From Okamejei kenojei (taxonomy: Eukaryota): DNA of 64,000 bases. The notes under the pieces were generated by a model, which was not told where the DNA came from, searched no databases, and worked only from the letters and a program-made list of their open reading frames with translations. Within the stretch, counting starts at the first letter, position 1. The number at the start of each line of letters is the position of its first letter. The translations under genes and the position numbers were made by a program. The stretch is taken from the NCBI GenBank assembly GCA_035221665.1, contig CM069134.1, forward strand, positions 19,406,001 through 19,470,000. The letters run 5' to 3'. Shown piece after piece: positions 1,447-63,245 of the stretch.

Positions 1447-1663
1447 TGTGTAGGAGGGAACTGTAGATAGACATGATATGCTGGAGTAACTCAGCAGGAC
1501 AGGCAGCATCACTGAATAGAAGGAATGGGTGACATTTTGGGTTCGAGACCTTTCTTCAGACAGAGAGTGACTGAAGAAGGGCCTCGACCTGAAACATCAC
1601 CCCTTCCTTCTATACAGAGAAGCTGCCTGTCCCGCTGAGTTACTCCAACATTTTGTGTCTATC
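1447..1663. mobile_element. Fold-back Penelope pLTR-derived element with hammerhead-like cores
   Basis: Two inverted copies of the tgctggagtaactcagc...agcatc...gaaggaatgggtgac...cttcttcag unit; ctgaagaagggcctcgacctgaaacatc at about 1572-1599. Confidence 0.8.
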
Positions 1664-1962
1664 CTCAGATTCAGATCAGCTTATTGTGATATACACCAGG
1701 GTGCAATAAAGTTCCTTGTTGACATGAAGGTCACAGAGTACATCAGTATACACGCTGTGCTGAAAAACCCAAAACCAAATGCAATGAGTGCAAAACAGCA
1801 GAACGGTGCAAAATTGTAATGAAGAATCTGAGTAATGCAAAAGAATATTAAAATACAATAATATAATATCAGAATGAGGTAGGGTTAAGAGTTATAGGTG
1901 GCGGCACCTATCCTGAGATGGGTTGTGAAAGAAGTCAGATAACAGTGGAGAACAGCAGTCAT

Positions 1963-2110
1963 AGGGTGGCACGGTAGTGTAGCGGTAGAGTTGCTGCCTC
2001 ACAGTGTCAGAGACCCGGGTTCGATCCTGACTACGGGTGCTGTCTGTACAGAGTTTATAACGTTCTCCCCGTGACCTGCGTCGGTTTTCTCCGAGATCTT
2101 CAGTTTCCCG
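1963..2110 (+). mobile_element. tRNA-derived SINE (HE1/V-SINE-like), 3' truncated
   Basis: A-box-like ggtagtgtagcgg, B box ggttcgatcc, then the V-SINE-type core gctgtctgtacagagttt...gttctccccgtgacctgcgt. Confidence 0.8.
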
Positions 2111-2319
2111 TTAAGACATTGTACAAATTTTTCACAGTCATATGTAGGTTAACTCAGGGTCAACGGTACAAAGAAATGTGTTTGACAAGACAATGGGTCA
2201 CCTCAGCAATGATATTACAAGGATAAAAATAAGATTAAAAAAAAGATAAGATGAAAGTGACATTGGTAGATAAAAGACAGTAATAAATAAAATAATCAAC
2301 ATATATGATGTGTTTATGA

Positions 2320-2925
2320 GTTCAGAAGCCTGATGGCCTGATGGTAAAAACTATTCTTAAGTCTGGTGATACGTGCAGCCATGCTCCTATATCGTCTGCC
2401 TGACAGTAACAAGGAGAACAGTCTGCGTGCTGAGTGGCTGTGGTCCGTGATGATGCTGTGTGCCTCCCGCAGGCACCGCCGGTGGAAAATGTCCTGAATG
2501 GCCGGGAGGCTTCACCACTCTCCATGGTGATTTGTGGCTGTGGGCAGAACAGTTCCCATACAAGACTGTGATGCAGCCCGTCAGCAGGCTCTCGATGGTG
2601 CACCTGTAGAAGTTTGTGAGGATGCTGGCGTTCATGCCAAACTTCCTCAGTCTTCTCAGGTAAAAGTGTCGCTGGCGGGCTTTCTTAGTTACTGTGTCCG
2701 TGTGCAGTGTCCAAGAGAGGTCCTCAGTGATGTGCACACCGAGGAACTTGAAGCTGCTGACCCTTTCAACCTCAGCATCACCGATGTGGATGGGGAGGTG
2801 TCCACTCCCCTGCTGTCACCTGTAGTCCACGATCATCTCTTTAGTTTTGCTGACATTGAGAGAGCGGTTATTTTCTTGGCACCAGCTGTTTAGTTCCTTT
2901 ACCTCCTCCCTGTAGGCTGTCTGTG
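2320..2925 (-). mobile_element. Rex1/Babar-type LINE fragment (RT C-terminal region)
   Basis: HITEDLSWTLHTDTVTKKARQRHFYLRRLRKFGM...LTNFYRCTIESLLTGCITV.YGNCS is the typical Rex1/Babar C-terminal motif; frameshifted. Confidence 0.88.
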
Positions 2926-3224
2926 ATGAGGCCCAGGATGATCAGGAAATGGAGGAACATATTCTTCAGCAGCAGCAGCTTTGGTCTTACTGTGACTTAG
3001 CAAAGGGAATGATGGCTGATGGGTCAGTGCCATAAGCAATATCCCTGATAACTGCCTTCATTCAGAGCGGTTCAGTAAAAAAACATAAAATGCTGGAGTA
3101 ACTCAGTGGGTGAGGCTGCACCTCTGGAGGATGTGGAGAGGTGATGTTTCGGATCTGGATGCTTTTTCTGTTCTAAGACAATGTTTCCACATTCAGTACC
3201 TCTGGTTCATCCTCCTGTAGATCG

Positions 3225-3378
3225 GCAAGACCAGCATCGATGAGGCGACTGTTTCTTTCTGTCCAGGGCCTCCTCCATTGCCAGAATGAGGCCACATGTT
3301 AAACATGATGAAAAGCACCTCACATTTCGCTTGGGTAGGTGACAACCCAACATATATATAATGAATTCTCTAATGAAA
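3225..3378 (+). mobile_element. Penelope-like element fragment (GIY-YIG 3' part, degenerate)
   Basis: cacctcacatttcgcttgggtagg... is near-identical to the GIY-YIG-coding segment at 12635-12700. Confidence 0.7.
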
Positions 3379-7895: not shown

Positions 7896-10324
7896 GGATG
7901 GATCATCTTAAACAACTTAAGTCAATTGTCCAGAAATGTTGTTACATTGTACTGCTGTTTCAAGATTGCGGATATGACAACTTTTTCCCCTGAAGTGAAA
8001 CACAATATCGACCATTTCCAGTAATTGGATTTGGTACCTTGGGGATAACTGGATGGTATCGTTCACCATACATCGTTCATTTTGAATCTTTTTGGAATAA
8101 CTCTGATCTTTCTGCATCAGAAGCAACAATCACTGAGCCTCCTGGCCCATCTCTGTCTCATCAGTGTAGCTCTGGCACAGGATCCCTGTCAGTTTAGTCT
8201 TGCATCTCCCTTTAATTATTCTGCCCTCTCTGTTATGACACTCCCAATCCACCAAGGACTACACTGTATCCCCATAACCAACCGCCCCCTCCTCCCCTGA
8301 GCTCACCTATGCGAGCCTCCAAACTTCTGTCCACTCAGGGTACTGGAACTGATCTCCTAACTTTCTAAAACCCAATCCTACAAGGCCACCAAATGACCTC
8401 CAACAACTCCCCCTCACTCACTCCACGAGCCTATTGCTTACCTCATCTCTCCCAGAGATTCTCGGAAGATCGTCGGTTTCAATCTGTCCGAATCTTGGCC
8501 ACAAACCCTCCCTTGTCAACTCAAGTCAAAGACAACCCACATTCCACCCCACCCCTAACTAGGCACTGACCCAACCTTTCCACCCCTCAACGCCACCTAC
8601 CAAACCAGCCAGGACTCAGCCCCAATCCCTTCTCTCCAACCACCTTCAACCCCAAGAACATGCAGTGCCTGTTCAGCTGAATTGGACAGACATACACCAT
8701 GGGCACATAAAGTTTACAGGAGAGTCACATACATCATGGCCAAAACAAAATGTACAAGAGGGCAGTGACTACTAAAGCAGATATCAGCACCAATCTTGGT
8801 GGCCTAGAATCTCTAACCATAAATATTTAACTGTATATATTCCTTCCTGGCTTTATTTCGAGATATTATTCAATTTGACATCAGCTGAAACTGGAGTTGT
8901 GTTGAGTCCCTATAGAGATGGCACCCTGTGCCTTGTGTGCAAACTGCAGGCAGGTCTGACATCCTGAGGAACGTGGGCAACATGTGCGGTTACTTCTACA
9001 TGGGAGTTCAAGCATTCCCCCACCTGCATGTCTCCAGGAGTGCATTAAAGTTGCTTCACCAGGAGACTGATGTTATTCATTCTTTGTCTATTTTTGTACT
9101 GATTTGTGAACTGTGAAAAATGTTAAAAGTCTAAAATGTCTCACATGTCCAGCACTATGTACGTGCAATGACCAGAAACAGAAACTAATCCATTGGGAAT
9201 GGAATGCGGTGCATGGGGTAATGTGAATAGAAGGTGCTTGGATCCTCAAGCCAATTCTTCAGCTCCTACAGATTTTGTTAAGATTTCTCATGGAGTCGAA
9301 ACCAATGTGTGAGCCCTGACATTCACTGGCATGCAATTTTACAACAATGGTGACTGTTGCAGATTTACACAGCAACAAATGGTCAAGGACAGATCCAAAA
9401 CTCAATGCACAGTACCGGCCTTTGGTTTATAACAATAGGTACTTAATTGATTTTTTTAATCTACATTCTCTCTGTACAGAAACATAAGTAATTAGCAAAG
9501 ACATGCATTTAGGGGAATTATGTTTACGACAGATGCCTATTGTGTTTACTGAGCAAGAACTGTAATAAAGTGGCTTAAAAAAAATGATTTTGTTTCCCGA
9601 GGTCTATCCACGGCTCATGTTAAAACTGTGTACAGGCCAAAGTTCATTTTTATCATGACTCCAGAGTGGTAAACACATCTACACTTGTGCACTTTGCTCC
9701 TTGACAAATCACTCACAGTTGCACAATTTATGACCTCTTTGTTTCAGACGAAAGAAACACGCATTAGTCTGGGCCGAAGAGAGTTGCTTTATTTCCTTTT
9801 CTGTAAAAAAAGGGTTTATCTGTGGATATTTGCTCAAAGTACATGTTAATGTTCTCAAAGTGAAGGGACTCACAGGAAATGATAAAAAAATATATACATT
9901 CTTTTGACATTATAATCCTGAATAGCACTGGAATCACCTAAGACAAAATTATTGATTATATTGAATGAGGAATAAGAGAAGAAACTAGAGTGCTTACATA
10001 TTATATATATTCCCTTAAAAAACTCTGGTTTATATTAATATTCAAAATATTACCCAGAAACTGTGTTGTGATAGTTTTACAATGTGAATGGTTTAGGTTC
10101 AGTGTTAACAAACAACCAAAAAATATGCAAAATAATGGCAGTTATGCAAAAGAAGTGCCCGTGGTTGAACACCCTTATGTTTGATGACCTAAACAGGTTC
10201 CTGTCGGCCCTGTGTCTCTTAGCTACTGTGGAAAGTGCTGCATCATGTTTGGAGGCTTGCTATTCCTTTAAGAGGCTTTGCCATGCAGTCATGAGTCATT
10301 AAAACTGTTGTACCGGATTTGTAT

Positions 10325-11150
10325 TAAAGAAGGAACTGCAGGTGCTGGAGAATCGAGGGTACACAAAAGGCTGGAGAAACTCAGCGGGTGCAGCAGCATC
10401 TAAGGAGCGAAGGAATAGGCGACGTTTCGGGTCGAGACCCTTCTTCAGACTGGTCAGGGATCAGGGAAACGAGAGATAAAGACGGTGATGTGGAGAGATA
10501 AAGAACAATGAATGAAAGATATGCAAAAAAGTATCAATGATAAAGTAAAAATGGAGCTGGTGCGACAAGGGCCCGAGGGCTGAGGGAGAGGTGGGAAGGG
10601 GAGGCGACAGCAAGGGTTAACAGAATTGAGAAAATTCAATGTTCAAGCCCAAAGGATGCAGACTCCCCAAGCGCTGGCGGATCGCCAACTGGCATCTGGA
10701 GAGCGGATGCAGTAGATGAGGTTGGAGGAGGTGAGTGGAGAGGTGAAGGGACAAGTGTAGCATTTCCAAGCGGTCTTTGCGGAGCAGACAGCTGGCGAGT
10801 GGAGGGGTCACGTTGGAGGTGGCGAAACTGGCGGGGACTATGTGTTGTATTAGCCGGCTGGTGGGGTGAAAGGTGAGGACCAGGGGGACTCTGCCCTGTT
10901 TGCAGAGAGGGCAGTGTGCGGGGTATGGAGGAGACCCTGGTGCGAGCCTCATCTATAGTGGGGGAGGGGAATCCCCTTTCTCTGAAGAATGAGGCCATTT
11001 GTGATGACCTGGTGTGGAACACCTCATCCTGGAAGCAGATGCGGCGTAGGCGGAGGAATTGGGAATAGGGGATGGAGTCCTTACAGGAAGCAGGGTGGGA
11101 GGAAGAGTAGTCCAGGTAGCTGTGGGAGTCAGTTGGTTTGTAGCTGCAGT
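10325..11150 (-). mobile_element. Penelope-like retroelement 3' fragment (RT C-terminus, internally deleted) with terminal repeat and intact hammerhead core
   Basis: YKPTDSHSYLDYSSSHPASCKDSIPYSQFLRLRRIC...FFRERGFP is a PLE RT C-terminal motif; LGSLHPLGLNIEFS is the end of GIY-YIG. Core at 10421-10448 reads CTGAAGAAGGGTCTCGACCCGAAACGTC on the minus strand. Confidence 0.9.
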
Positions 11151-12110: not shown

Positions 12111-12442
12111 TGTGTTGCCACTTTCAGGGAGTCATGGACTTGGACACCCAAGATCCCTCTGTACATCAATATTGTTAAGGGTCATGCCATTTTACCCTTA
12201 AATTCGACCTCCTAAAGTGCAACACCTCATACTTGCTCAGATTAAACTCCATCCGCCATTCCTCTGCCCATTTCTGTAGCTGATATATATCCACTGTATA
12301 CTTTTACAGCCTCACAGTCTGCGACCCCAGCAATGTTGGTGTCATCTGCAAAACTAACTAACCAACCTATCTACATTTACATATATATATATATCACAAA
12401 CAACAGAGGTCCCAGCATAATCCCTTGTGGAACACTGATCAG

Positions 12443-12897
12443 CTCCTGTACATCGGTGAGACCAAGCGCAGTTTCTGCAATCATTTCGCTGAACACCTCC
12501 GTTCAGTCCGCCTTAACCTACCTGATCTCCCGGTTGCTCAGCACTTTAACTCCCCCTCCCATTCCCAATCTGACCTTTCTGTCCTGGGCCTCCCCCATTG
12601 TCAGAGTGAGGCCCAGCACAAATTGGAGGAACAGCACCTCATATTTCGCTTGGGTAGCTTACACCCCAACGGTAGGAACAATGACTTCTCTAACTTCAAG
12701 TAGCCCTTGCTTTCCCTCTCTCTCCATCCCCTCCCCTTCCCAGGTCTTCCACTAGTCTTACTGTCTCCGCCTACATTGTATCTCTGTCCCGCCCATTCCC
12801 CTGACATCAGTCTGAATAAGGGTCTCGACCCGAAACACCACCCATTCCTTCTAGAGATGCTGCCTGACCCGCTGAGTTACTCCAGCATTTTGTGTCT
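12443..12897 (+). mobile_element. 5'-truncated Penelope-like element: GIY-YIG endonuclease C-terminal part plus terminal repeat with hammerhead-like core
   Basis: YIGETKRS...FAEHLRSVR...PVAQHFNSPSH...LEEQHLIFRLGSLHPNG is PLE GIY-YIG. ctgaataagggtctcgacccgaaac lies at about 12812. Flanked by a 9-bp direct repeat actgatcag (12434-12442, 12898-12906). Confidence 0.92.
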
Positions 12898-13139
12898 ACT
12901 GATCAGAGACCTCCATACAAAATATCACCCTTCCATCACAACCCTCTGTCTTCTGTCAGTCAGTCAGTTCTGAATCCATACACCCAAGTTAAGCTGGGCA
13001 TCATAATCTTCTGGAACAACCTACCATGGGTGACTATCAAATGCTTTACTTAAATCCATGTTGACAACATCCATCATCCTCATCGATCACCTTCATCACC
13101 TCATCAAAAAACTTTAAAAAAATATTTAACCACATCTAA

Positions 13140-13750
13140 CCACTTACCCCTCACATTCAATGACATTACCATCGCAGTTCTCACAATCAACATCCTTGGG
13201 ATGACCGTGGACCAGAAACTCTGTAAGACCAGCCACAAAAACACCCAAGGCTACAAGAGCAGGTCGGCTGCTGAGTATCCTGCAGTAAATGCCTCCGCTC
13301 CTGACACACTAAACCGATAGGAAAGTGCTGAAGTAACTCAACGGGTCAGGCGGCATCTATGGAGAACAACGCTAGGCGACGGTTTGGGACCCGACCAGAA
13401 ACATCACCTATCCATGCTCTCCAGAGAGGCTGCCTGACCCGCTGAGTTACTCTAACATTATGTGTCCTTTAGTGTAAACCACCACCTGCAGTTCCTTGTT
13501 TCAACTCTAAACCGATTGTACCTTGTTCATGGAATGCCAGGGGTGTGAAGAAATACTCTCTGATTGTCAGGTCCACCCATGATCAAGAAGCATGATATCA
13601 TCCTGCATTAAACCATCCCATTGATTCATCCCAAACACAGTCAGCACACAGCAACTATGGTATGTGTACTATTTAGAAATAACACTATGGTTACTCACCC
13701 AGTCCACTCCAAAAGCACTCAGAAACCTATAACCTCTACTATCAAATAGG
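13140..13750 (+). mobile_element. Degenerate LINE RT relic interrupted by a fold-back pLTR element (13320-13505)
   Basis: tcaacatccttggg...gaccagaaactc...ggctacaagagcaggtc resembles a LINE RT C-terminus. The inserted palindrome is flanked by taaaccgat on both sides. Confidence 0.55.
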
Positions 13751-15705: not shown

Positions 15706-16205
15706 GTTTAAGAAAGAACTGCAGATGCTGGAAAAATCAAAGGTAGACAAAAATGCTGGAGAAACTCAGCGGGTGAGGCAGTATCTATGGAGCGAAGGAA
15801 TAGGTGACGTTTCGGGTCGAGACCCTTCTTCAGACTGATGTGGGGGTGGGGGCGGGAAGAAAAAATGAAGAGGCAGAGACAGTAGGCCGTGGGAGAGCTG
15901 GGAAGGTGAGGGGAAGGAGGGAAAAAGCAAGGACTACCTGGAATTGGAGGAGTCCAAATTCATACCGCTGGGGTGTAAACTACCCAAGCGAAATATGAGG
16001 TGCTGCTCCTCCAATTTGCGGTGGGCCTCACTCTGGTCATGGAGACGGCCCAGGGTGGAAAGGTCGGATTCAGAATGGGAGGAGGAGTTAAGTGCTGAGC
16101 TACCGGGAGATCAGGTCGGTTAATGCGAACTGAGCTGAGGTGTTGTGCGAAGCGATCGCCAAGCTTGGTCTCACTGATGTAGAGCAGTTGACACCTAGAA
16201 CAGCA
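15706..16205 (-). mobile_element. Penelope-like element 3' fragment (GIY-YIG plus terminal repeat, intact hammerhead core 15806-15833)
   Basis: Reverse complement of the 12443-12897 element; contains gacgtttcgggtcgagacccttcttcag. Confidence 0.9.
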
Positions 16206-19575: not shown

Positions 19576-20329
19576 TGACACAATCAAACCAATGCTAAAT
19601 CTGAGATAAACTATTCAATCGTGTCATATAGACAGGTTGACACAAAATGCTGGTGTAACTCAGCGGGTGAGGCAGCATATCTGGAGAGAAGGAATGGGTG
19701 ACGTTTGTTATATAGACACTTGGCCTCACTAAAATTTGGTTTCTTAGCCTTTCCAGTTTATGGACTCAAAAGAACAATTCAATGTGGAAAACTATCAACT
19801 AAAGCATGTGGATAAAGTTATCAGCTGCCAACAGTCTCTCAAGTAATATTTTGCCTGTGCTCCCTTTATATTTTGGTAACCAAACTAAACAGAATAAGAC
19901 AACATTTTGGGATGAGAATAGACTATATTCGCAGCATGGGATAATTCAATTTATATACTCAGCAATATAGTGTATTCTCCTATAGCTTTCCTGTTTGCAG
20001 CTTGGCATTGAGTAGACATACAATGGAATGAGATATTTGAATAGATGAAATAAAGAAAGAATCTTATATATGTGGAATAAACAACATGGAGTTATTTGGT
20101 CAAATATCCCACCTATGTAGTGTAAATTACATCAAGCTTATTCTGCCGTTAGTTTACCGCCCATGCTTTGATACTATTTATTGCTCCTTTATTGTATAAC
20201 ATACTAAAATTACATTTATTTTTTTACTTATTGCTTGCACTCAAATTAACCTTGTTTTGCAGACATTAAGCTACCTTGTTAATTTTGATATAAATTTTAG
20301 ACGGCTGGAATCGGTGATGTTTCACTTCT

Positions 20330-20424
20330 GTCTGAAGGGTCTCGACCCGAAACATCACACATTTCTTCTCTCCAGAGATGCTGCCTGTCCCGTTGAGTTA
20401 CTCCAGCATTTTGTGTCCATCTTT
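20330..20424 (+). mobile_element. Solo pLTR-derived element, mutated hammerhead core
   Basis: tctgaagggtctcgacccgaaacatcac...agatgctgcctgtcccgttgagttactccagcattttgtgtc. Confidence 0.8.
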
Positions 20425-21177: not shown

Positions 21178-21295
21178 CTAGTCAATATTAAAGATTGTTT
21201 TTTTTCCTTTGATGCTGTTCGTATATTAACATACTCAAAGTAAGTCACTTTAATTGTTCTTTTCTCTTTGAAATTCTCCCGATGTGGAAAAATCA

Positions 21296-44278: not shown

Positions 44279-45179
44279 TGATTTCTCCCAAGTTCTTCGA
44301 CTATGGAAAATCCTTGGAGGCTTTAACTTAGAAATGTTACAATCAGCTAAATTTCGGCGTTACCTTTCACTGAGAAAGAAGCATGGACGAGAACGTATTT
44401 GGAACATTAAACTAGTAATCAGTTAATAATTATTTTTGCGTGGTGCATTTAACGGAACAAAACTCAGACATATTCAATTGCAACTAATTGTTGACACGCC
44501 TTCCTTGAAAATATTTTACATAGGTCACGTTTGTGACTTATTCTTTTTATTTCTCATGTCATAGCAGAGTTCTAACCTGCTGAGTACCCATTGTATTTTC
44601 TGCGTTTATTTCAGATTTCTAACATTAACTACGGTTTTTTTTTTATTTCTGTGGGATTGTTCTCAGTTACAAATATAATGTATGAAAGACTGAGTAACCC
44701 TCAGTTTAAAGAAAATCAGTATCTGCCGATATAAAGAGACTGCAGCTGCTGGAATCTGGAGCAAAAATAAAACTGCTGGAAGAATGCAGCGAATCAAGCA
44801 GCTTTCGTGGAGGCACACGAACGCCGACTTTTCGAATCGATAAATTGCATCAGGATAGCGATCCGAAACGCCATCAAATAGCGGGTGGACATTTTAATAT
44901 TAAAGAGTGAGTGAAATCAAGATCCGCCTTTGGAATCAGATGGTTTCTGTCTCTTTTAAGCTTTGAAACAACATAGGACAGCATTATATAGAAGGTTGAT
45001 GTCGCATTATATATTACTTCAAGAGGACTGGAGAATGTAATACAGATTCACTGAATTTGAACATTTTAACGAATATATTCGTGTGCAGGGGGTTAGGGGG
45101 TCAAAGGGGTACTTACTATATTGTCATCGATGGTAGTAGAATCACAATTTATTTATGTCAACAGAATAGTAAATTAAAA

Positions 45180-45312
45180 TCTAGAAATAAAGAAATGCAG
45201 ATACTGGTTTATACCAAAGAGAGACACAAAGTGCTGGAGTAACTCAGCGGGTCAGGCAACATCTCCGGAGAAAAATAATTGGTGACATTTCGGATCGGGA
45301 CCCTTCTTGAGA
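45180..45312 (-). mobile_element. Solo pLTR-derived element
   Basis: gacacaaagtgctggagtaactcagcgggtcaggcaacatc...tttcggatcgggacccttctt. Confidence 0.8.
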
Positions 45313-48300
45313 CTACGGTATCTAATAATTTCCAATTTCCGCAGGTGTCCGCAGATAGCATTTCGTTATTTACAAAAAAACCCTACAAAGGTTACTTACT
45401 CTTAGATTTCAACACAAAAGGGACAATTTAAGGACATGCAATTGTTGGTGGAAAATACAATAAATAAAATGAAACTACGGGTGTTTTTTAATTACAAAAA
45501 CACCATTAACATAATAACATAATAAAAGAAACATAATAGAAGAAGCAGTTGCTGAAAAATGAATATTAACGTTAATTTGCAAACTTTAATTTGATAATCA
45601 TAACGCAACTGTTTTCAAGTGCTCTTAGGGGCTACTACAGAACGCTACAGTATAGATTTGGGGGGAACTTTGGGGCTACTCAAAGCTAGAGTATATATTT
45701 TGCAAAATTTTCGTCAACATTTTCAACCAATATAATACAGATCAATTAAAAGTATTTTTGACCCAGGGATTTGCATTTACATTGTCTCTGTGAAAAGGTG
45801 GCATGCGGTCTTACATTTAAATCTGCTCTTCATCTTTGGGTAAAATATAATAAGCAGATTTTTGGCTCAATCCAAATATATATAAGTAAACGGAATATCG
45901 TATCTTCCCATGTTCTACGGAAGGTAAACAAGGAGAACGAACAAAGATAGAGTTGGCGCTAGCACTGTCATAGGTCATCTTATCTTTCCATTATTTCCAA
46001 TCCAGATATAAACCAAACAGCTAGTGCTTTCTTCTTCCATGCAAAATAATCCTTTAAACGGACCTCTCTTTTGATCCCGTGTCTCAATTTTTCGCTAAGT
46101 ACATTCCAATCTGACTCACGTAAAGTCAGACTTTCTGTTCTGTAGTCAGAAAGGGTTCTGCTCTTTTTCGTCAGGTCCCTGTGTAAAACAAAATAGTCAC
46201 AGTCTAACTGATAGTTGTGACCTCCCACGTGTGGAGTTGCTCTACAGGATGACCAAATTCTGGGTGGAAGGAAAATTCCAATTTGTTAACATTTCCTGTG
46301 CTTCATTGTCAGGACGTTGTCAAAAGTTACTTGTTTTAGAATGGGATCATGTGAATTTGAGTGAATAATATAAATATTGTTTACAGCCTAGAGCTAAAGC
46401 AGTAAACTGTTGACCTGAAGGTTACAGATACTCAAGAGAATGTATATAATCCCAGAGTAATTCTGAACATTGGTTAGTTCTGAGGCTGGTAGTAGAGTGG
46501 TGTAATTAATAGTTTATCCTCAGACCATAAGACCAGAATTTAATGTCACTAGCTGTAATTTTTAAGTTACTGTCATATCATATTCATTTTAAGTGAAAGG
46601 TTTACACCTATTTGATATGAACAGCCAATATGCACTCTATTACTTAATAAAGATTAAGCATCCAAAATGTCTAATTATTAATGTAATTTAGAAGGAAACT
46701 TTTAATATTGATTGTTAAACATTGTTCAATATTTAATATTTTTATCAATGAGAAAAGTTGATTTCTTCATCAACTTATGGTGTGACAAAATTTGACATGG
46801 CATACTGTAATTGGATCAATAACTATTTTAAATCCTAAATTTTACAAAACTGCAAGGTAAGCAAGTATTCAGTGTATCATTCCATTACCATTTTTGTAAT
46901 AATAATCTGCAATTCATTATCAAAATATTTAACTGAGAAAAACAGAAAACATATGCTTTCTCAGCTGCTGCAGAATAAATAGACCTGTGCATTCTGCTTG
47001 AATACAGAACTGGTTCATTGTTTAATCCAACACATCAGGATGAACATTTTTTTTATAACATTGCAATTAGCAAATTGTAGGAGATTTCCAAAATAAAGAT
47101 TTGCACCATCTTACATGTAAACTGACTTTTGTTTTACTATCAACAGTGGAAATTGAACATACATTAAACTTAAATATTTTAATTTACTTGTGAACATATT
47201 ACTAAGATCACAATATGCTGTTTTTTTGGTTTGCCATGATCAGTGAACATGCACAATGAAGCAATTTTGTTTTGATGAAGTGATTTTGCTCAGACTTGGT
47301 GTGTTTTTCCGCGATCTTCATCTGAATATGTTTGTCCGTTATCTTTTCATTGGACAGGCAACCAAAATGAAAATGGTAAATAAGGTTATTTTTATGTTAG
47401 GTGCAAAGTGCTTTTGTTTTCAATATATATTAAATGTCCCACTGCTTAGAACCCAAAATATTAGAACTACAAAAGCATTTCATATCTCAGTCACAGGTAC
47501 CATTTTGTGTTGGCTGTATAGGTTCACCCCGAGAACATTGGCATGCTTACTTTGATAGAAAAGCCCATAATATCGGAACTTACATCCAAGTTGGCTAGCA
47601 GGAGAAACAATTAAAAATTACACATTTGTGAGTTTTGCTTTCGTTATCAATTTGGTTTGAATTAGTGTGATGTACGATTGGATATTTCTTATCCTGGTAG
47701 ATGATTTAGGAGTTTCGCTGTCATTCCCTCTAAAGATACCAGAGAGAGAGACAGAGAAAGATAATGTGAGAGGAGGAGAGAAATAATCTCCTCCAGTATA
47801 TGGACACTATGGTAAGTTAGCAAAATATTTTCATGTAAATTGTAATGCCCTGAAACTCCACGTCTGGCACAATTTGTAATCACATAATGATTTTGCTTTT
47901 CAAAGAGGAATATTTAAGTCTATGCCAACCATGAGTCTCCATAGAAATGTAAACACTGAAATTGACTATTTGGGGAGAACTGAGTTTGCAGATGCTCTTA
48001 CTTCACATATTACTTTACTTTATGTTCTGTCATCATATGTACAATGTGTCATTGTTTCTTTTTATTTATCCACTTACTATTAGCTGAATCTGTTTGGCAA
48101 TCTATCCAGCGATTGGCTAATGACATTTTTATTCTATTCCTTCCCAAAGCTGACAAAGATCATGTGAAAATGTGCAGTTTAACAAGTAGGATGAAATCAG
48201 TGGCAGAAGATTGCTGTTCAATCACCTTGTGTACCTTGCTGCTGAGCAAATAAAGATATACTTTGCAAAAAAAACACAGATCATTGTCTTACCAGTGCAA

Positions 48301-50579
48301 AAGATGCTGTATGTGGAATACAATAATGACAGGAATACCAAACAAGGCCAGATAACTGTGTTCCATTTTACGGTTGTAAAATGTTACGGTTGGAACATTA
48401 GAATGTATTTGACTTAGATCAGGCAATTGAGGTGGTTTTTTGGACTCAATTCCCAGATGTCCATCCATTATATTTCCATTGGAAAGGTGGAGCCTTATAC
48501 GTCATGGAACAAATAACAAAAGAAAAATGGTAAACGTGACAATTTGGTATAAATTATTGGGCAGTTTATTTTCAATATAGTTTAATATTGCATGCTGATG
48601 CTGCCAAAGTTTATTTTAAAAAAAAATCATACTACAGTTCTGTCAAGTTCAAAAGCTATGAGTTAATGAAAAGCAAAATAAAATTGCAAACTCTGGAAAT
48701 CTGAAATACAAAAAAAAAAATGCAGGAAGAACTCAGCAGGTCAGACAGTATCTGTGAAAAGAGAAACAGTCAATAATTTGACACTTGGTTTCAACCTAGT
48801 TGATGTTTAGGTTGGGGATAATATGTGGTAAATCTTCTGCATTTTCTAATAATTATTATAGAATTTATACAGTATATGTGATTTTAGCACAATAATGCAA
48901 CATTTGATAATAGTAGTTTTATCAAGGGTATAAGTGCTTTCTTTTTACTTCACTTTGTCAAGAATGTTTTGAGCTTGGTATATTGTGAAATTTTGGTGCA
49001 AGAAACAGAATCTATAAAACATTTATGAACACATTTCCCAGATTAGGGAAAATGCATTGGAACAGAAAGACTTCCAGTGTCAGGGGTGAGCCTTAGTGGA
49101 AAAATAAGTTTTTCCATTTCTTAATTGTGTCCCTTAGCCAAAGTGAAAATATAAATGTCAATGTGGAAGATTGTTTACTTTGGTGTATACCTGTCACGAA
49201 TTGGCCCTCCAACTCATGTATAAAGATTCTTTACAAGCACAAGAGAGGCAGGAAACTTTTATCGGATTAGTTTATTCTGCTTTCAAACATGGGTCATTGA
49301 ATTACAGGATAATGTGAAAACAGAGTGAATCAATCAAATCTCTTCAAGTGCTTGTGGTAAATTCAATAAATAATCATCTTGCTTGATAACAAATAAGGAA
49401 TTTAATTGATCATACAAATTAAGCAGGCAATTATTTCATCCTCAGAATGAGAAGATGATCACTATCAGTGCTGCTATAATATATTTTGATAATACCAATT
49501 AATTTGGTTGTATGCCAATGATGAGGAGCTTTAAAATTAGGTCAATAGCTTTAGACTGGATATATAAGCAACAACAATAACAAATTCAGGTCATTTGCTG
49601 ACTGTGCTTTCATAAAATTCTTCACAAAATTACCATCCAATTTACCTCTGGGAAATGCTTTCATGTTGCATTACCCACTGCTCATCCTTACCCTTGCATC
49701 TAATTTTACATACGCAACTATTCCAAAGCATTCTCAGCTAATATTTTATAATCCTGCATCTGTAAATATAAACTCACCCAAACTCACTCACCTTTAATTT
49801 TGTTTGTCTATCATTACAGTACTCATTGATTTACTCTGGCTATTGGGCCAACCTTGACTTTAAATTCCCTAGCCTTATTTTCCAAGCAATTGATGGCTTT
49901 AATCAATTTTTATCCCTCCAACCTATTCCAAAGCTATAATATTTGGAATTCTAAGTCTTGTGTTCTAAGCCTTCCCTAGAATATTACTCTCATTTTAAAT
50001 TGTTCCAAAATTAGCCTCATATGTCCAATTGCCCAGGATCCAAGATTTAGAATGTTCTTTATAATTCTTTCAAGCTCTCTGAGTCTCAGCTTCTTAACGG
50101 AGATCCTCATGGAATGCCTTTTGGATCAAGCTTTTGTACATCAGTCTCAGCACTTACAATGATTATGCACCTGTATTATCATTTCACTATTATAAATGGA
50201 CTATATGAAGGCATCATTCTTTATCTTTGGTTATGTGAATGATTAAATGACTTAAGAAGCCTTTGGTATTTTACAATGTATAAAATCGGTGTTTTGTTTT
50301 AATACATGTTTTATTATTGACATTGCTTTCTTAGAGGTGTCATTAAAATGTTAATTGAAGTGAAGCTCTGGAACTATTTTTTAAATGAATATATATATTC
50401 TATGTTAATTCACAAATTTTATTTCCAACAAACAGTATTTTTATTTTTACAGAAAAGGCAACTTTGACAGTCACACGAGTGACAGAGTTTTGATATTTGA
50501 GAAACACTATGCAGGGCTATTTATTCAAGATTGAATTACCACAATTGTTAAAAGTTCCTAAGACAAGAGAAATGTTAAG

Positions 50580-50960: not shown

Positions 50961-51659
50961 TGGTTAGATATAGGTTCAGCAACTGCAATCTCTTGGCATT
51001 TATTTGTTTGCCTAAGAATTTTGCATTGGTTTGCCAAAAGTGGCTGAACATTTTTTTTTTCTGTTTTTTGCCTGTCAGATGATTTATGGTGGTTCTCGTG
51101 TTTAATAAATGATGTTTGACATTTTAGAATAGATTGAATGAGAAGATTTGGTGAATCTGCATGAAAATAAACATGAAAAAACAAAATCAGTATACATTTT
51201 GAGCAGTTTGTGATATATTACTTAGGCAATTGCCATTATAAATGTAGCCACAAAAGTTTATAATCAAAAGACTTAGTACAAAACTATGAAGTTTAATAAA
51301 ATAAAATTTTGCAGATGCAAAGTGCTTGGAGAATATTATTCCATAAAATTGAGGCAGCTTTGTTTTTTTCATCAAGGTGAATGAGATTGTCTATATTAAT
51401 TTAACACACCTGCACGTATGTAAATACATGTAGCCCCATACTTGACTGTTCCAACTTGCATAATTGCAATAGATATTCTTACAGGTCTTGTTTTGTTAAT
51501 TATGCAATGGCATAGCCTCACGTCTCATAAAAGCTCTTGTGATGTGGAGAATTCCTGAATACAAATATATTACCAATCTTGCTGAAGTTGATACCCTCGG
51601 ACATTACTGGCTTTACTTTGCACTAAACATTATTACCTTATCATATATACATACACTGT

Positions 51660-51785
51660 GTTAAAGAAGGAACTGCAGATGCTGGAAAATCGAGGGTACA
51701 CAAAATGCTGGAGAAACTCAGCGGGTGCAACAGCATCTATGCATGGTTTGACCTGCTGAGTTTCTCCAGCATTTTGTGTACCATC
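51660..51785. mobile_element. Short fold-back pLTR element (core deleted) inside a LINE-tail relic
   Basis: ggtacacaaaatgctggagaaactcagc / gctgagtttctccagcattttgtgtacc; atacactgt / atatactgt flanks. Confidence 0.8.
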
Positions 51786-52899: not shown

Positions 52900-53032
52900 T
52901 GTGCAAGAAGGAACTGCAGATGCTAGTTTAAACCAAGGATAGAAACAAAATGCTGGAGTAACCCAGCGGGATAGTCAGCGTCTCTGGAGAGAAGGAATGG
53001 GTGATGTTTCGGGTTGAGACCCTTCTTCAGAC
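52900..53032 (-). mobile_element. Solo pLTR-derived element
   Basis: gaaggaactgcagatgct...gtttcgggttgagacccttcttcagac. Confidence 0.85.
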
Positions 53033-55684: not shown

Positions 55685-55940
55685 AAGATAGACACATAAA
55701 AGGCTGGAGTAACTCAGCGGGACAGGGCAGCATCTCTGGAGAGAAGGAATGGGTGACATATAAAATAGAAAATAGGGAAGGTGGAGGCCGTTTGGCCCTT
55801 CGAGCCTGCACCGCACGTTTTGGGGCGAGACCCTTCATCCATTCCTTCTCTCCAGAGATTTTGCCTGTCCCGCTGAGTTACTCCAGCTTTTTGTGCCTAT
55901 CTTCGGTTTAAACCAGCATCTGCAGTTCCTTTCGGCACAC
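55685..55940. mobile_element. Fold-back pLTR element with a CR1-tail fragment in its loop
   Basis: Inverted arms; the inner atagaaaataggg...ggcccttcgagcctgcaccgc is a CR1 tail; flanked by ccagtatcatggtga / ccagtattatagtga. Confidence 0.82.
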
Positions 55941-57830: not shown

Positions 57831-57904
57831 TGTCGGAATGATCCACAGTGTCCAACATAGTGATGGGTGAGCCCCCAGTGACGAATCCCAGTGTCGTAAG
57901 ATGA

Positions 57905-58026
57905 AAATGCAGATGCTGGCTTAACCCGAAGATAGACACAAAATGCTGGAGTAATTCAACGGGACAGGCAGCATCTCTGGAGGGAAGGAATGGGTGATGT
58001 TTTGGGTCAAGACCCTTCTTCAGACC
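57905..58026 (-). mobile_element. Solo pLTR-derived element
   Basis: tgcagatgctgg...gggtcaagacccttcttcagac. Confidence 0.82.
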
Positions 58027-58614: not shown

Positions 58615-58803
58615 GTTTAAGAAGGAACTGCAGATGCAGGAAAATCGAAGGTAGACAAAGGTGCTGGAGAAACTCAGCGGGTGCGGCAGCATCTATGGAG
58701 CGAAGGAAATAGGCAATGTTTCGGGCCGAAACCCGTTGCCTATTTCCTTCGCTCCATAGATGCTGCCGCACCCGCTGAGTTTCTCCAGCACTTTTGTCTA
58801 CCT
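58615..58803. mobile_element. Young fold-back pLTR element
   Basis: About 70-bp near-perfect inverted arms around tttcgggccgaaa. Confidence 0.9.
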
Positions 58804-58812
58804 TCCTACTTA

Positions 58813-59152: not shown

Positions 59153-59375
59153 TGTTCAGGAAGGAACTGCAGATACTGGTTTACACCGAAGATAGACACA
59201 AAATGCTGGAGTAACTGAGCGGGTCAGGCAGCATCTCCGGAGAGAAGTAATTGGTGACATTTTGGGTTGATACCCTTCTTCAGGCTAGAAGGGTCTCGAT
59301 CCGAAACGTCACCCATTCCTTCTCTCCAGAGATGCATCCTGTCCTGTTGAGTTTCTCCGGCATTTTGTGTCTATC
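59153..59375. mobile_element. Fold-back pLTR element
   Basis: Two inverted pLTR units joined at cttcaggctagaaggg. Confidence 0.88.
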
Positions 59376-60429: not shown

Positions 60430-61106
60430 AGAAGGTAGCAAAAATGCTGGAGAAACTCAGTGGGTGAGGTAGCATCTATGGAGCGAACGAACTAGACAAC
60501 GTTTCAGGTCGAGACCCTTCTTCAGATGCCTTAATTGTTCTAAACAAGAAGCCATCCAATTCACTACACAGTAAATCAAGGTCAAATGAAAAGAGTAGCA
60601 GCAACCACAGCACATAGCTTTTATCAACCTCACAAAAGCCTTTTACTCCATAAATTCAGAGGGATTATAGAAAATTATTCTCAAATTTAGTTATCCCGAG
60701 AAGTTCATGAAGGCCTGAAGAATGGTCCCGATCTGAACCGTCGCCTATCATTTTACTCCAGAGATGCTGCCTGACCCGTTGAGTTACTCCAGCACTTTGT
60801 GTCTATCTTAGGTTCATGACAATTCTGTCTGAGATAAATAATAATAACATACAAGCTGCAATCTTAACCAACAAGACTAACACACACTCAATCCCAATGC
60901 AAACGGGGTCAAGCAAAGATCTTCCCAATCTTCTTCACTATAATATAGCACTTCATCTCGAACAAACATCCAGTTGTGCAGTAAGGAACTGCAGATGCTG
61001 GGTAATACCAAAGATAGGTACAAAATGCTGGAGTAACTCAGCGGGTTGGCAGCATCTCTGGATAGAAGGAATGGGTGATGTTTCGGGTTGAGACCCTTCT
61101 TCAGAC
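60430..61106. mobile_element. Three solo pLTR-derived elements (60430-60526 -, 60715-60810 +, 60978-61106 -)
   Basis: Each carries the tgctggag(t/a)aactcag...cttcttcag unit or its reverse complement. Confidence 0.8.
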
Positions 61107-61954
61107 TGCTGGATTGGAGTTAACCCAGAGGATGAATGGGAAGTTCGGCACTTTGTAACTAAAATCCTCCCCAAATTTCAACCATTTATCTACACCACTC
61201 AGATGATATTTGATAAATGCATCTCATCATGTTGCTCCTCATAATGTAACTGCTGGGAAGGGCTGACATTTAGGCTATGCAGTTTTGTGTCCCCTGGATC
61301 CTGAATGTTGCAGACTTTTCTTCAGGCATGCGTGGTGACCAATATCACATTCTGTGGCAGCAGGATTCCCACGGCATACATAGCGTCACACCTGATAGTG
61401 AGCGGCACACCAGAGTTAATGTCAGGTGGTCATGGAAGGTCCGGTGGCTAATCTTCAGTTTATCATGGTGATTGCAATGTAGATTGCAATGGTGGACTGT
61501 TGCAGAATGAAGTGATCAGAATAGCTTCCAGGACACCAGGACGGACCTCCATGTGACACTGTCTTTCCCACACAGTCATAGCAAGGAAGTGGAATTTTCT
61601 TTTGGGTTCAGATACAGACGTAAACAATTAATTCACTGTCATAGAGTCATGCAACACAGAGACAGGCTCTCCGGCCTAACTCATTCATGTCAACCAAGAT
61701 GCCCAGTCTGAGCTACTCCCACCGTCTGTCGATGTAGTTGCAATGTCAGCATTTATTAACCAGCTACTATTTATTGAGAAGGCTGATAAGAGTGAATCAC
61801 GTTGATGGGCCAGGAATTATATATTGATCAGAATAGGTGGGGATGTCAAATGTCCTTGATCATTGATCAATAGACAGGGTCTTGTTTCCATTTGAATTCT
61901 AGGTCCACAACTCCAGCTGATAGTGATGTAACTTAATACCCTCTTGTCCTTTGC

Positions 61955-62245
61955 ATCATGCCTGGCTCAGTAACCCAACACCCAGGAATGAAGGAGGCTG
62001 CAGAAAGTGGTAGACACTTCCTGGTTCATCACGGGTACTGACCTTCACCCCATCAAAGGGATCTACAGGAGGCATTAACTCAAAAAAAGGCAGCAAAGAT
62101 CATAAAAGACACACATCGCCCTGGCCATGCTCTCATCTGGCTACTGCCATGGGGAGGACGATACAGGAGCTTGAAGACCGTAACCTCCAGATTCAAGAAC
62201 AACTTCTTCCCAGCAACCAACAAGGCTCTTGAACACTGCACAACT
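61955..62245 (+). mobile_element. Rex1/Babar-type LINE 3' fragment, degenerate
   Basis: gcagcaaagatcataaaagacacacatcgccctggccatgctctc...ctactgccatggggaggacgatacaggagc corresponds to the 'A.KIIKD..HPGH.L..LLP.GRRYRS' motif. Confidence 0.72.
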
Positions 62246-63079
62246 CTGATCTACCTTGGCCTTGATTGCACTATAGACCTCATTTTTTTCACTATTATGG
62301 TCTGATTTTAAGTAGTATTCAGTCTACTTATGCATATACTAAATATGCAAATTTCAAGTCCAACCCACTGCAGATGTGCATGTATTTAGTTTAACTACTG
62401 TCAATTCCAGAAAACACACTCTGGAGAGATATAGCTAACGCACTGATGTTTGGTGAATAATATGTCTGAAGAAGGGTCAAAACCTGCATGTTATCTGTCT
62501 ACCTCTTCCATGGGATGCTGCCATTGAGTTCCTCAAACACTCTTCTCTTTGATTCATATGTTAATCAGGTTCCATTTGTCAAACATTTTCAATCAATACA
62601 ATTTATGGTTAGCTGTCTGGGTTTGCCAACAGTCAGAAATCTGAGCAATTAAAGAGAAACAAGAGTAGACAGACACAAGAGGTCAAGGTCCAAATGACCA
62701 CGCAAACAGGAATTGTTCCTTGACCCGTTAAACAAATCTTCCACCCCAGTCTGTCTCTCTGTCCAGTTTCTGCCCATCAACCCCGCATTTAGATTTCCAC
62801 ATTGCTCTCTCCTCTTCACAGCTATGTTTAGAAATCTATTTGCTACCCACCATGCCACAACCTTTTCCAATTACCATTGACCCAGCAAACACCAGCTGCA
62901 GCCCCAGTCACTAGCCTTTCTGTCTATTAGCCAGCCAACCTCAGTCTGGCTGGGTAAGGAGCAGTAAGTGAAACCCAAAACTACCTTGTTATTGAATTTC
63001 ACTGCGTGTCTAATGTGACAGCACTTCCACAGACATCGCTGGAGGTGTACATCAACAATTTCCTCTAGCCTCCTACAGC

Positions 63080-63245
63080 CAATAGACAATAGGTGCAGGA
63101 GTAGGCCATTCAGCCCTTCGAAGAAGGGTCTCGACCTGAAATGTCACCTATTCCTTCGCTCTATAGATGCTGCCTCACCCGCTGAGTTTCTCCAGCATTT
63201 TTATCTACCTTCGATTGTTCCAGCATCTGCAGTTCCTTCTTAAAC
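63080..63245. mobile_element. CR1 tail fragment fused to a plus-strand pLTR element
   Basis: caatagacaataggtgcaggagtaggccattcagcccttcg followed by aagaagggtctcgacctgaaatgtcacc...ctgcagttccttcttaaac. Confidence 0.8.

What the first reader, a model, noticed from the sequence alone, without database searches (positions are those of the whole stretch)
1447..63245. High-copy family of ~100-140 bp Penelope-derived elements carrying a minimal hammerhead ribozyme
Seen: about 28 copies in 64 kb (counted by eye) of one short unit whose end reads CTGAAGA-A-GGGT-[CTCG]-ACCC-GAAAC-GTC. Intact cores lie at 10421-10448(-), 15806-15833(-), 21086-21113(+), 29638-29665(-), 32265-32292(-) and 37056-37083(-). 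Variants keep the stem and change the loop (GGGT-TTCG-GCCC, GGGT-TCCG-ACCC). Three copies are still attached to Penelope GIY-YIG/RT coding fragments (10325, 12443, 15706), which fixes the origin. Established: CUGANGA...GAAA...NUH is the hammerhead catalytic core, and Penelope-like elements carry minimal hammerheads in their terminal repeats, with a palindromic stem III (here ACGT) that favours dimeric folding. Inference: the terminal repeat alone has become a prolific SINE-like or retrozyme-like non-autonomous family in this lineage, with at least two subfamilies (ggagtaactcagc and ggagaaactcagc types). Caveat: stem I is only about 2 bp in the consensus, so monomers may be inactive.
Basis: partly seen in the sequence, partly recalled or inferred. 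Interest (0 to 1): 0.8.

Follow-up and report, generated by a model that had tools for sequence, protein, structure and literature searches.

The report
Skate Penelope-retrotransposon end repeats with hammerhead
These are scattered copies of the short end repeat of a known kind of jumping gene (a Penelope-like retrotransposon) in a skate-like fish; each carries the known minimal self-cutting RNA motif, and their sharply fixed ends record how the element's enzyme starts and stops copying rather than proving a new independent element.

Summary
The repeat is real: 41 segments in about 31 insertions (6.6% of the window), with six intact minimal hammerhead cores at the stated places. It is the terminal repeat (pLTR) of a Neptune-type Penelope-like element; the best protein hits are from skates. 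Such hammerheads, and their scatter as single or opposite-strand copies, are published.

The hammerhead is at the unit's 5' start. The 3' ends fall at two sites about 35 nt apart (the PLE 'tail'). Thirteen insertions are head-to-head pairs, and 11 of 11 scorable pairs join a tailed and an untailed arm. 23 of 42 arms start within 10 nt at the hammerhead's edge, so random truncation fails.

A retrozyme or SINE is not supported: no tandem arrays, no tRNA head, tail state not inherited, every subfamily has an ORF-linked copy, and copies decay neutrally.

Best reading (about 0.55): short run-off cDNAs, primed at the two internal start sites near the 5' end of uncleaved element RNA. Ribozyme activity is untested and unlikely without protein. 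Known kind, with one testable mechanistic twist.

The parts
10324..11146 (-). Subfamily A copy: RT-thumb/linker/GIY-YIG remnant with many internal deletions (~10622-11146), pyrimidine-rich intron-like spacer (10450-10621), tailed repeat unit with intact core (10421-10448)
   Evidence: tblastn and frameshift-aware alignment to whale-shark PLE protein P0003; unit 99% identical over 97 nt to solo 21083; spacer
12440..12899 (+). Subfamily B 5'-truncated copy: GIY-YIG end (12443-12703), spacer (12700-12810), untailed unit with damaged core; 9-bp target duplication; lies beside LINE-type RT fragments
15706..16202 (-). Subfamily C 5'-truncated copy: GIY-YIG end, spacer (15835-15937), tailed unit with intact core (15806-15833)
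1446..1665 (.). Head-to-head pair P1: minus arm tailed (21-nt deletion in the tail), plus arm untailed; 13-bp duplication with one mismatch
3081..3373 (.). P2: old untailed minus arm facing a degenerate GIY-YIG fragment (about 3205-3373, plus) whose own repeat is missing
13316..13503 (.). Pair P3: minus untailed, plus tailed, joined inside stem II; 13-bp duplication with one mismatch
19634..19706 (-). Unpaired untailed copy starting at +22; 13-bp duplication with one mismatch
20300..20423 (.). P4: plus untailed copy with a 17-nt inverted fragment (not scorable for tail)
21083..21178 (+). Unpaired untailed subfamily A copy, intact core 21086-21113
27617..27751 (-). Unpaired tailed B copy, core damaged
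28916..29106 (.). Pair P5: minus tailed (starts +44), plus untailed
29450..29752 (.). Old pair P6 (minus untailed, plus tailed), interrupted by the next item
29582..29667 (-). Young untailed A copy with intact core 29638-29665, inserted into the plus arm of P6 near its junction, with a perfect 15-bp duplication
32201..32328 (.). Pair P7: minus untailed A arm with intact core 32265-32292 (UUCG loop), plus arm reduced to the tail
34648..34855 (.). Pair P8: minus untailed, plus tailed starting at about +26 to +29 (near the predicted cut); both arms share private variants
36990..37186 (.). Pair P9: minus untailed with intact core 37056-37083, plus tailed starting about +29; about 180 bp into the intron after the GATA-N exon
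44146..44277 (+). Unpaired tailed B copy; 11-bp duplication with one mismatch
44733..44840 (-). Old diverged tailed copy
45185..45314 (-). Unpaired tailed copy
48675..48758 (-). Old diverged copy starting about +45
51659..51785 (.). Pair P10: both arms A type and lacking the hammerhead; minus tailed, plus untailed
52901..53032 (-). Unpaired tailed B copy, palindrome lost
55686..55935 (.). Pair P11: minus untailed arm split by a 55-nt insertion, plus tailed arm starting about +27 to +29
57896..58026 (-). Unpaired tailed B copy
58615..58804 (.). Pair P12: minus tailed, plus untailed, junction at stem II; 10-bp duplication
59154..59375 (.). Pair P13: minus tailed, plus untailed
60432..60527 (-). 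Unpaired untailed copy (A/C type)
60712..60808 (+). Unpaired untailed copy; 8-bp duplication
60975..61108 (-). Unpaired tailed B copy, palindrome lost
62464..62550 (+). Old diverged untailed copy
63118..63245 (+). Unpaired tailed C copy
20788..37800 (-). Host context (not part of the element): coding exons of a GATA4/5/6-type gene whose introns hold eight of the insertions; the most-like-GATA6 label is recalled, not from a call
   Evidence: Pfam GATA-N and GATA; exon positions

Best explanation
The unit is the pseudo-LTR of a Neptune-type Penelope-like retrotransposon, i.e. the first ~130 nt of the element's RNA (numbering: first C of CUGAAGA = +1). It holds a minimal type I hammerhead (+1 to +28, 2-bp stem I, 4-bp stem II, ACGU in place of stem III), followed by a stem-loop region with two reverse-transcription start sites near +95 and +130. 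SHOWN: PLE origin, the two 3' ends, the sharp 5' edge at -2/-1, target duplications, head-to-head pairs with one tailed and one untailed arm. INFERRED by analogy with the anole Poseidon enzyme: the element protein nicks both target strands and primes cDNA internally, one strand at each start site. One cDNA gives a single copy; two give a head-to-head pair. INFERRED, my own step: the RNA begins at about -2/-1 (an initiator-like TCAGTCT), so priming at the start sites nearest the 5' end runs off after only 95 or 130 nt, like a retroviral strong-stop DNA. This makes ORF-less copies the main product (27 of 31 loci), while priming at a downstream repeat gives the rare ORF-bearing truncated copies. 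The templates were mostly uncleaved, since the copies span the cut site. Inserted copies are dead ends that decay neutrally. The hammerhead probably matters only in master elements and needs protein help.
For: Coding remnants match RT-plus-GIY-YIG proteins of skates and whale shark; the latter has the CX4CxxC linker and CxxC inside GIY-YIG (clade features from PMC8557442). 3' ends are bimodal. 11 of 11 scorable pairs are tail-discordant, P about 0.001 at even odds; arms of P8 and of P12 share private variants. 23 of 42 arms start at -4..+5, 16 start further in, none between -5 and -368, and 3 run on 369-690 nt; 2.1 were expected at the edge, Poisson P 2e-16 (ends curated by hand). Target duplications score >=8 at 8 of 31 loci versus 14 of 930 mismatched flank pairs. 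Each of three subfamilies holds one ORF-attached copy, and tail state is mixed within each (27 arms). Singleton substitutions: core 6/190, stem II 5/133, downstream 30/1052, P=0.58. PAc cuts and extends both strands, starts at two internal sites that bound the tail, uses uncleaved RNA, needs RNA beyond the tail, and its hammerhead cleaves only with protein (PMC11167929). PLE promoters are internal to the pLTR (PMC2377424). TCAGTC fits TCAKTY in 2 of 3 ORF-attached copies, 1 mismatch in the third (consensus recalled).
Against: No full-length element is in the window, so the true start site and the sequence beyond the tail are unseen. The same edge is also a perfect CAG 3' splice site after a 103-172-nt pyrimidine tract; in Drosophila Penelope the intron ends at helix I and the start site is upstream of it, which would put the start elsewhere. 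Most copies begin at G-1 (10 of 11 unpaired copies checked carry it; only 4 of 11 carry A-2), not at the initiator A. PAc is a Poseidon, not a Neptune. Conservation of the core between subfamilies is only a trend (1 of 17 versus 15 of 56 columns vary, P=0.096). Copy 10324 looks like a deleted non-autonomous master, so mobilisation in trans probably does occur. 23 of 31 loci show no strong duplication.
Confidence: 0.55

Rival explanations
1. Independent non-autonomous family: solo repeats keep an internal promoter, are transcribed, and are copied in trans by the PLE protein, like a SINE.
For: Fixed ends; 27 of 31 loci lack any ORF; target duplications on solos. pLTRs suffice for mobilisation in trans in rotifers (PMC3846280), and non-autonomous PLEs exist in Chlamydomonas. 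Copy 10324 has about 120 aa deleted in 8 blocks inside the ORF and 4 frameshifts, yet a young repeat.
Against: Tail state is not inherited and every subfamily has an ORF-linked copy. An untailed solo cannot template a tailed one. PAc needs about 55 nt beyond its tail, which no solo has. Most solos have lost the TC(A) of the initiator-like motif. The deleted master is about 820 nt, not the repeat alone.
Confidence: 0.15
2. Same origin, but the 5' edge is not a transcription start: it is set by RNA processing or an enzyme block at the splice acceptor, or by the base of the hairpin that pairs UCUGAAGAAGG with CCUUC..AG downstream.
For: CAG acceptor and pyrimidine tract in 3 of 3 ORF-attached copies; intron end at helix I in D. 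virilis; the hairpin starts near the edge in several folds.
Against: Solos carry no spliced-on upstream exon (mean score 11.3 versus 10.8 null, 11 copies). An enzyme moving 3' to 5' should stall at the 3' side of a hairpin, not at its 5' base.
Confidence: 0.15
3. Solos are left by recombination between the two direct repeats of once full-length insertions, like solo LTRs.
For: This also gives fixed ends and intact target duplications (solo-LTR logic in PMC8969392).
Against: It needs most insertions to have been full length, yet the three intact ORF-bearing copies are cut to 460-820 nt with one repeat. Repeats of 95-130 bp recombine poorly (general knowledge). It does not explain pairs in which both arms are short or cut inside the unit.
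Confidence: 0.07
4. Ordinary random 5' truncation of an autonomous PLE, as assumed in the literature for scattered minimal hammerheads.
For: 16 of 42 arms do start at scattered points inside the unit; PLE copies are known to be heavily truncated.
Against: 23 starts in 10 nt against 2.1 expected, and none in the next 360 nt.
Confidence: 0.04
5. Non-LTR retrozyme: self-cleaved monomers circularise and are re-inserted.
For: Type I hammerhead with PLE kinship; monomers of retrozyme families are dispersed in Xenopus.
Against: No head-to-tail array. Copies start 28-30 nt upstream of the cut, not at it. The hammerhead is minimal rather than canonical. The active dimer lies 12-46 kcal/mol above the best fold in 18 of 18 constructs.
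Confidence: 0.03
6. The antisense strand is a Pol III SINE, with A-box-like and B-box-like motifs 53 nt apart.
For: Both boxes within one mismatch in 2 of 6 copies tested; 8-28 of 2000 shuffles reach this (consensus recalled, test post hoc).
Against: Absent in 4 of 6, including the youngest A and C copies; no tRNA call; no LINE-type tail; ends behave as PLE ends.
Confidence: 0.02

Closest known systems
Minimal hammerheads of metazoan PLEs (Cervera and de la Pena 2014, PMC4209133)
   Same: Type I core without stem III, extra base after A9, G10.1-C11.1, palindromic 15.2-16.2; lies in the pLTR; mostly found as single motifs and sometimes as close opposite-strand pairs; thousands per genome in coelacanth and Xenopus.
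   Different: Helices are shorter (stem I 2 bp versus 4-5; stem II 4 bp versus 7-8 in Schistosoma). Sharks and skates are not named in the parts read. That paper ascribes singles to truncation and does not describe a fixed 5' edge.
Poseidon PAc of Anolis (Frangieh et al. 2024, PMC11167929)
   Same: Same GAAAC-GUC core; two 3' ends about 35 nt apart downstream of the hammerhead; a stem whose 3' strand lies in the tail (here AGAUGCUG with CAGCAUCU); uncleaved template.
   Different: Here the clade is Neptune-type; the repeat shows no common reading frame (subfamilies differ by 1-4-nt indels), whereas the PAc ORF starts at stem II; stems I and II are shorter; ORF-less copies dominate.
Inverted pLTR plus optional tail of EN+ PLEs (Craig 2021, PMC8557442; Arkhipova 2013, PMC3846280)
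   Same: Head-to-head inverted 5'-truncated copy, 30-40-bp tail on one end only, 8-15-bp duplications.
   Different: Here the inverted structure usually has no ORF at all: two bare repeats face each other, and the one-tail rule held in 11 of 11.
Non-LTR retrozymes (Cervera and de la Pena 2020, PMC7229834; Li et al. 2026, bioRxiv 10.64898/2026.07.22.740005)
   Same: Non-coding, pLTR-related, type I hammerhead, dispersed monomers; reported in one chondrichthyan genome.
   Different: Defined by head-to-tail tandem units with a hammerhead in each (canonical in the 2020 paper) and by circular RNA; none of that is seen here.
Drosophila virilis Penelope pLTR (Schostak 2008, PMC2377424; hammerhead in PMC4209133)
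   Same: 2-bp helix I; an intron-like stretch ends at the 5' side of helix I; internal TATA-less promoter.
   Different: There the start site is 46 nt upstream of the intron and helix II is 6 bp; here copies end at the acceptor itself.

Membership tests
EN+ Penelope-like element (pLTR) | RT followed by C-terminal GIY-YIG with CxxC between GIY and YIG | tested here: met
   Window fragments align at 48-64% to P0003, which has RVT_1 and GIY-YIG; IYCIR and CSRCQLLY remain in the window
EN+ Penelope-like element (pLTR) | Optional 30-40-bp 3' tail | tested here: met
   3' ends near +92-97 or +123-131
EN+ Penelope-like element (pLTR) | Inverted 5'-truncated copy head-to-head | tested here: met
   13 pairs
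EN+ Penelope-like element (pLTR) | Full-length or partial-tandem copy with two direct pLTRs | not testable with these tools
   None in the window; no vertebrate genome collection available
Neptune clade | CX2-5CxxC linker between RT and EN | tested here: met
   CNRRKCYTC in P0003; CYTC survives in copy 10324. Shared with Nematis; only Neptune and Poseidon were found in vertebrates by Li et al.
Neptune clade | Placement in an RT phylogeny | not tested
   Only the thumb region is in the window and no reference set was at hand
Minimal PLE hammerhead | CUGANGA, extra base, stem II with G10.1-C11.1, GAAA, palindromic 15.2-16.2, UH | tested here: met
   6 of 42 arms fully intact
Minimal PLE hammerhead | Helix I of 4-5 bp | tested here: not met
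   2 bp in 4 of 6 intact copies, 1 bp and 4 bp in the others; a 2-bp helix I is published for D. virilis
Minimal PLE hammerhead | Covariation in the stems | tested here: inconclusive
   89% of cells paired, but 71-121 of 500 shuffles do as well on every measure; 0 of 18 pairs compensatory among tailed copies
Minimal PLE hammerhead | Self-cleavage as a dimer or with protein | not testable with these tools
   Folding disfavours the active dimer by 12-46 kcal/mol; this needs a bench test
Non-LTR retrozyme | Head-to-tail tandem units, each with a hammerhead | tested here: not met
   No array of this unit; the two same-strand neighbours within 400 nt are a nested insertion and an unrelated old copy
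Non-LTR retrozyme | Circular monomer RNA | not testable with these tools
   No RNA data
SINE | tRNA/5S/7SL-derived head with Pol III boxes | tested here: not met
   No tRNA, no Rfam hit; box look-alikes only antisense and in 2 of 6 copies
SINE | Own master lineages, independent of ORF-bearing copies | tested here: inconclusive
   All three subfamilies have an ORF-attached member among 27 arms; a genome-wide test was not possible

The most novel reading that the evidence does not exclude
In this skate lineage the normal product of Penelope-type retrotransposition is a 95- or 130-nt 'strong-stop' copy of the RNA's 5' leader, inserted singly or as a two-primer head-to-head pair. If the density here (31 loci in 64 kb) is anywhere near typical, the genome holds hundreds of thousands of natural records of where the enzyme primes, where the RNA begins, and how often the hammerhead had cut in vivo. 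Three pair arms (P8, P9, P11) begin at or within 3 nt of the cut site. A genome-wide spike at +29 would be direct in-vivo evidence that a PLE hammerhead cleaves, which RNA-seq in Anolis failed to show.
Probability: 0.4. Interest if true: 0.62.

Novelty: new member of a known kind. Interest (0 to 1): 0.36.

Why it matters
That PLE repeats carry minimal hammerheads and litter vertebrate genomes has been known since 2014, so the headline is not new. The value lies in the ends. The PLE insertion cycle is still unresolved beyond the priming step, and whether these hammerheads ever cut in cells is open. A dense family with two fixed 3' ends, one fixed 5' edge and a strict one-tail rule in pairs makes both questions answerable from a genome assembly alone. 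For the host, the pairs put ~100-bp hairpins into pre-mRNA introns, here of a GATA factor gene. Three intact cores in the sense direction are tolerated there, which suggests little cleavage.

Tried and rejected
Rfam: no family at gathering threshold; at E<=10 in 29400-37300, nine sub-threshold hits, mostly miRNA-like hairpins over the inverted junctions and snoRNA-like hits elsewhere, no hammerhead. Pfam found nothing in the three PLE fragments sent, so identity rests on homologues. One search used wrong stem I columns and was redone. Covariation was not above shuffles. Whole-unit folding stability was unremarkable: z between -3.2 and +1.1, below -2 in 1 of 12; stem II probability was at most 0.21 in the 11 copies scored. 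Selection on individual copies was rejected. A spliced upstream exon on solos was not found (the best single case has P=0.014 before correcting for 11 tries). An antisense Pol III SINE is weak. AT content next to tailed ends is 109 of 160 versus 59% background, a mild bias only. Lunse et al. 2017 was not held. No bacterial-genome scan, structure prediction or complex prediction was run, as they do not bear on a vertebrate repeat. Dfam and Repbase could not be searched; the family may well be catalogued there.

Full report
OBSERVATION. The repeat is real. The 27-nt core pattern matches 17 times within three mismatches, against none in 100 shuffles. A profile built from 12 long copies finds 48 segments at E<1 and 41 at E<1e-3; a reversed window and five block shuffles give nothing better than E=0.017. 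The 41 segments cover 4,226 bases, 6.6% of the window. Grouped by hand they are about 31 insertions: 13 inverted pairs, 15 unpaired ORF-less copies and 3 ORF-attached copies. Six cores are fully intact, at exactly the places given; three more have lost the ACGU palindrome. Rfam does not recognise the motif.

ORIGIN. The fragment at 12443-12703 finds 11 proteins among 107 candidates; the best are from Leucoraja erinacea (77% and 71%) and whale shark (64%). The whale-shark protein P0003 has RT, a CX4CxxC linker and a GIY-YIG domain with internal CxxC. It aligns to 10711-11142, 12443-12700 and 15952-16202, and weakly to 3255 onward. The linker marks the Neptune or Nematis clades (PMC8557442); Li et al. 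found only Neptune and Poseidon in vertebrates. So this is a Neptune-type PLE of a skate-like fish. No RT tree was built. The host locus is a GATA4/5/6-type gene on the minus strand.

ANATOMY. On the coding strand the order is ORF end, a 103-172-nt pyrimidine-rich spacer ending in CAG, then the unit. With the first C of CUGAAGA as +1, the hammerhead spans +1 to +28: extra A after A9, 4-bp stem II, GAAA, ACGU in place of stem III, and a 2-bp stem I. This fits the published minimal PLE motif (PMC4209133) except for shorter helices. The 3' ends fall near +92-97 or +123-131, which is the PLE tail. Thirteen insertions are head-to-head pairs. Eleven can be scored, and in 11 of 11 one arm is tailed and the other is not (P about 0.001). 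P2 (ORF arm without a repeat) and P4 (17-nt arm) were left out. In most pairs it is the untailed arm that holds the hammerhead, so neither arm can be a fold-back copy of the other; two primings on one kind of template are needed.

THE 5' EDGE. Of 42 arms, 23 start at -4..+5, 16 start further in, none starts between -5 and -368, and three run on for 369-690 nt. From the rate of starts inside the unit, 2.1 were expected at the edge (P 2e-16). These ends were read by hand; the tail-only arm of P7, the ORF-only arm of P2 and four weak fragments (26060, 30415, 30597, 34988) were not counted. Target duplications score 8 or more at 8 of 31 loci against 14 of 930 mismatched flank pairs, with a perfect 15-mer at 29582-29667 and a 9-mer at 12440-12899 (boundaries set by hand; one null pair also scored 15 and was not traced). 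At least those copies are true insertions.

LINEAGES AND SELECTION. A tree of 27 hammerhead-bearing arms gives three groups, A, B and C, with some intermediates and weak internal support; each group has one ORF-attached copy and both tail states. Private substitutions are as common in the core (6/190) and stem II (5/133) as downstream (30/1052; P=0.58), so inserted copies are not kept for their ribozyme. Shared changes tend to avoid the core, but not significantly (1 of 17 versus 15 of 56 columns, P=0.096). Stem covariation does not beat shuffles. Against my reading: copy 10324 has about 120 codons deleted in eight blocks inside the ORF and four frameshifts, while its unit is 99% identical to solo 21083. 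That suggests a deleted non-autonomous master of about 820 nt, although the deletions could have arisen during one insertion.

RIBOZYME. In folding, the 5' core strand pairs with a CCUUC tract downstream of the cut; stem II probability is at most 0.21 in the 11 copies scored. The active dimer lies 12-46 kcal/mol above the best two-strand fold in 18 of 18 constructs (nearest-neighbour energies omit tertiary contacts). Published minimal PLE hammerheads are inactive as monomers and weak as dimers. The anole one, with the same GAAACGUC core, cuts only with protein, and cutting is not needed for insertion. Head-to-head pairs put the two motifs on opposite strands and cannot supply a dimer. Most copies span the cut site, so their templates were uncleaved. 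Three plus arms (P8, P9, P11) begin at or within 3 nt of +29, but microhomology blurs those junctions; this is a hint only.

MECHANISM. Frangieh et al. showed for PAc that both target strands are cut and extended, that priming is internal at two sites bounding the tail, and that RNA beyond the tail is needed. The tail-discordant pairs are what one priming per strand, at different sites, would leave; this step is inference across clades. For the 5' edge I infer that the RNA starts at about -2/-1. TCAGTC fits an initiator in 2 of 3 ORF-attached copies, with a DPE-like stretch at the right distance in 2 of 3 (consensus motifs recalled, and the DPE-like bases are also the ribozyme core, so this is weak). 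PLE promoters are internal to the pLTR. Priming at the start sites nearest the 5' end then runs off after 95 or 130 nt, which explains fixed ends, the excess of ORF-less copies and the mixing of tail states without any self-propagating solo. I give this 0.55.

COMPARISON AND NOVELTY. It works like the pLTR of an EN+ PLE and is one. It fails the defining tests for retrozymes (no tandem units; definitions) and for SINEs. Scattered single and opposite-strand minimal hammerheads, inverted pLTRs and one-sided tails are all in print. I found no description of this family in skates, nor of a fixed 5' edge or strong-stop reading. The searches were made, in an open-access library only; Dfam and Repbase were not searchable and may hold the family.

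PAPERS SEEN. PMC4209133: parts 1-2 of 4. PMC11167929: parts 1-3 of 4 and the text of two figure supplements, without the images; its Fig. S2 on genomic copy ends may bear on the 5' edge. bioRxiv 10.64898/2026.07.22.740005: parts 1-3 of 5; its closed supplements list the chondrichthyan families and may include this one. PMC8557442: passages and one section. Passages only: PMC3846280, PMC2377424, PMC6765202, PMC7229834, PMC8969392, bioRxiv 10.1101/2025.06.08.657570 (no mention of Penelope or PLE). Lunse et al. 2017: not seen, known only from the citation. The names GATA6 and HE1 and the promoter consensus motifs are recalled.

VERDICT. Observation confirmed, interpretation partly supported. A new, very dense member of a known kind; interest 0.36, rising to about 0.6 if the end pattern holds genome-wide and reveals the RNA start or in-vivo cleavage.

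Noticed in passing
20788-37800 (-): GATA4/5/6-type gene: GATA-N exon (MYQSL at 37773), zinc-finger exons at 28286 and 21424, next exon at 20818; later exons not found by my motif search. Three intact hammerhead cores lie sense in its introns and one antisense.
   Followed up: partly
58597-59391: Two inverted pairs of different subfamilies share one 15-bp flanking sequence (left of P12, right of P13, partial copy between), with a ~335-bp element bearing 47-bp terminal inverted repeats (58812-59145) between them: repeated use of one target site.
   Followed up: partly
29450-29752: A young copy inserted near the junction of an older pair, next to a 16-bp tandem duplication; fits insertion into the element's own repeats.
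   Followed up: partly
about 3205, 12440, 16202: Three of four coding fragments begin within about 15 nt of the same point in the GIY-YIG region, and copy 10324 has a deletion starting near it: a possible second preferred 5' edge near -370 (n=3).
   Followed up: partly
10450-10621, 12700-12810, 15835-15937: The spacer between the ORF end and the hammerhead looks like an intron (GT at the stop codon, 75-81% pyrimidine, CAG).
   Followed up: partly
unit positions +75 to +115: The motif CCAGCA occurs twice about 30 nt apart, each 11-20 nt upstream of one of the two 3' ends, in all three subfamilies; a candidate protein recognition signal.
   Followed up: no
13940-14275, 7599-7889, 33052-33378, 53857-54168, 57528-57824 and fragments: A second dispersed ~330-bp repeat family, 70-83% identical; it resembles the elasmobranch HE1 tRNA-SINE (name recalled).
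   Followed up: partly
2387-2815 (-); 12202-12442 (-); 22517-22809 (-); 55760-55815: LINE-type fragments. The first hits Pfam ALKBH8_N; the next two match the RT-like part of P0001; the last recurs at 50793-50846.
   Followed up: partly
11650-11954; 16214-16800; 56118-56272; 56854-57005: A 22-bp minisatellite (13.5 copies), a purine-rich tract, and 40-45-bp tandem repeats.
   Followed up: no
35875-35926 (+): Several sub-threshold C/D-box snoRNA-like Rfam hits at one spot (best E 0.37), antisense to the GATA gene; probably chance.
   Followed up: no
P0007: A skate neuromedin-U receptor model carries a 72%-identical piece of this element's endonuclease, and P0001 and P0002 look like similar chimeras: the repeat seems to contaminate gene annotations.
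   Followed up: no
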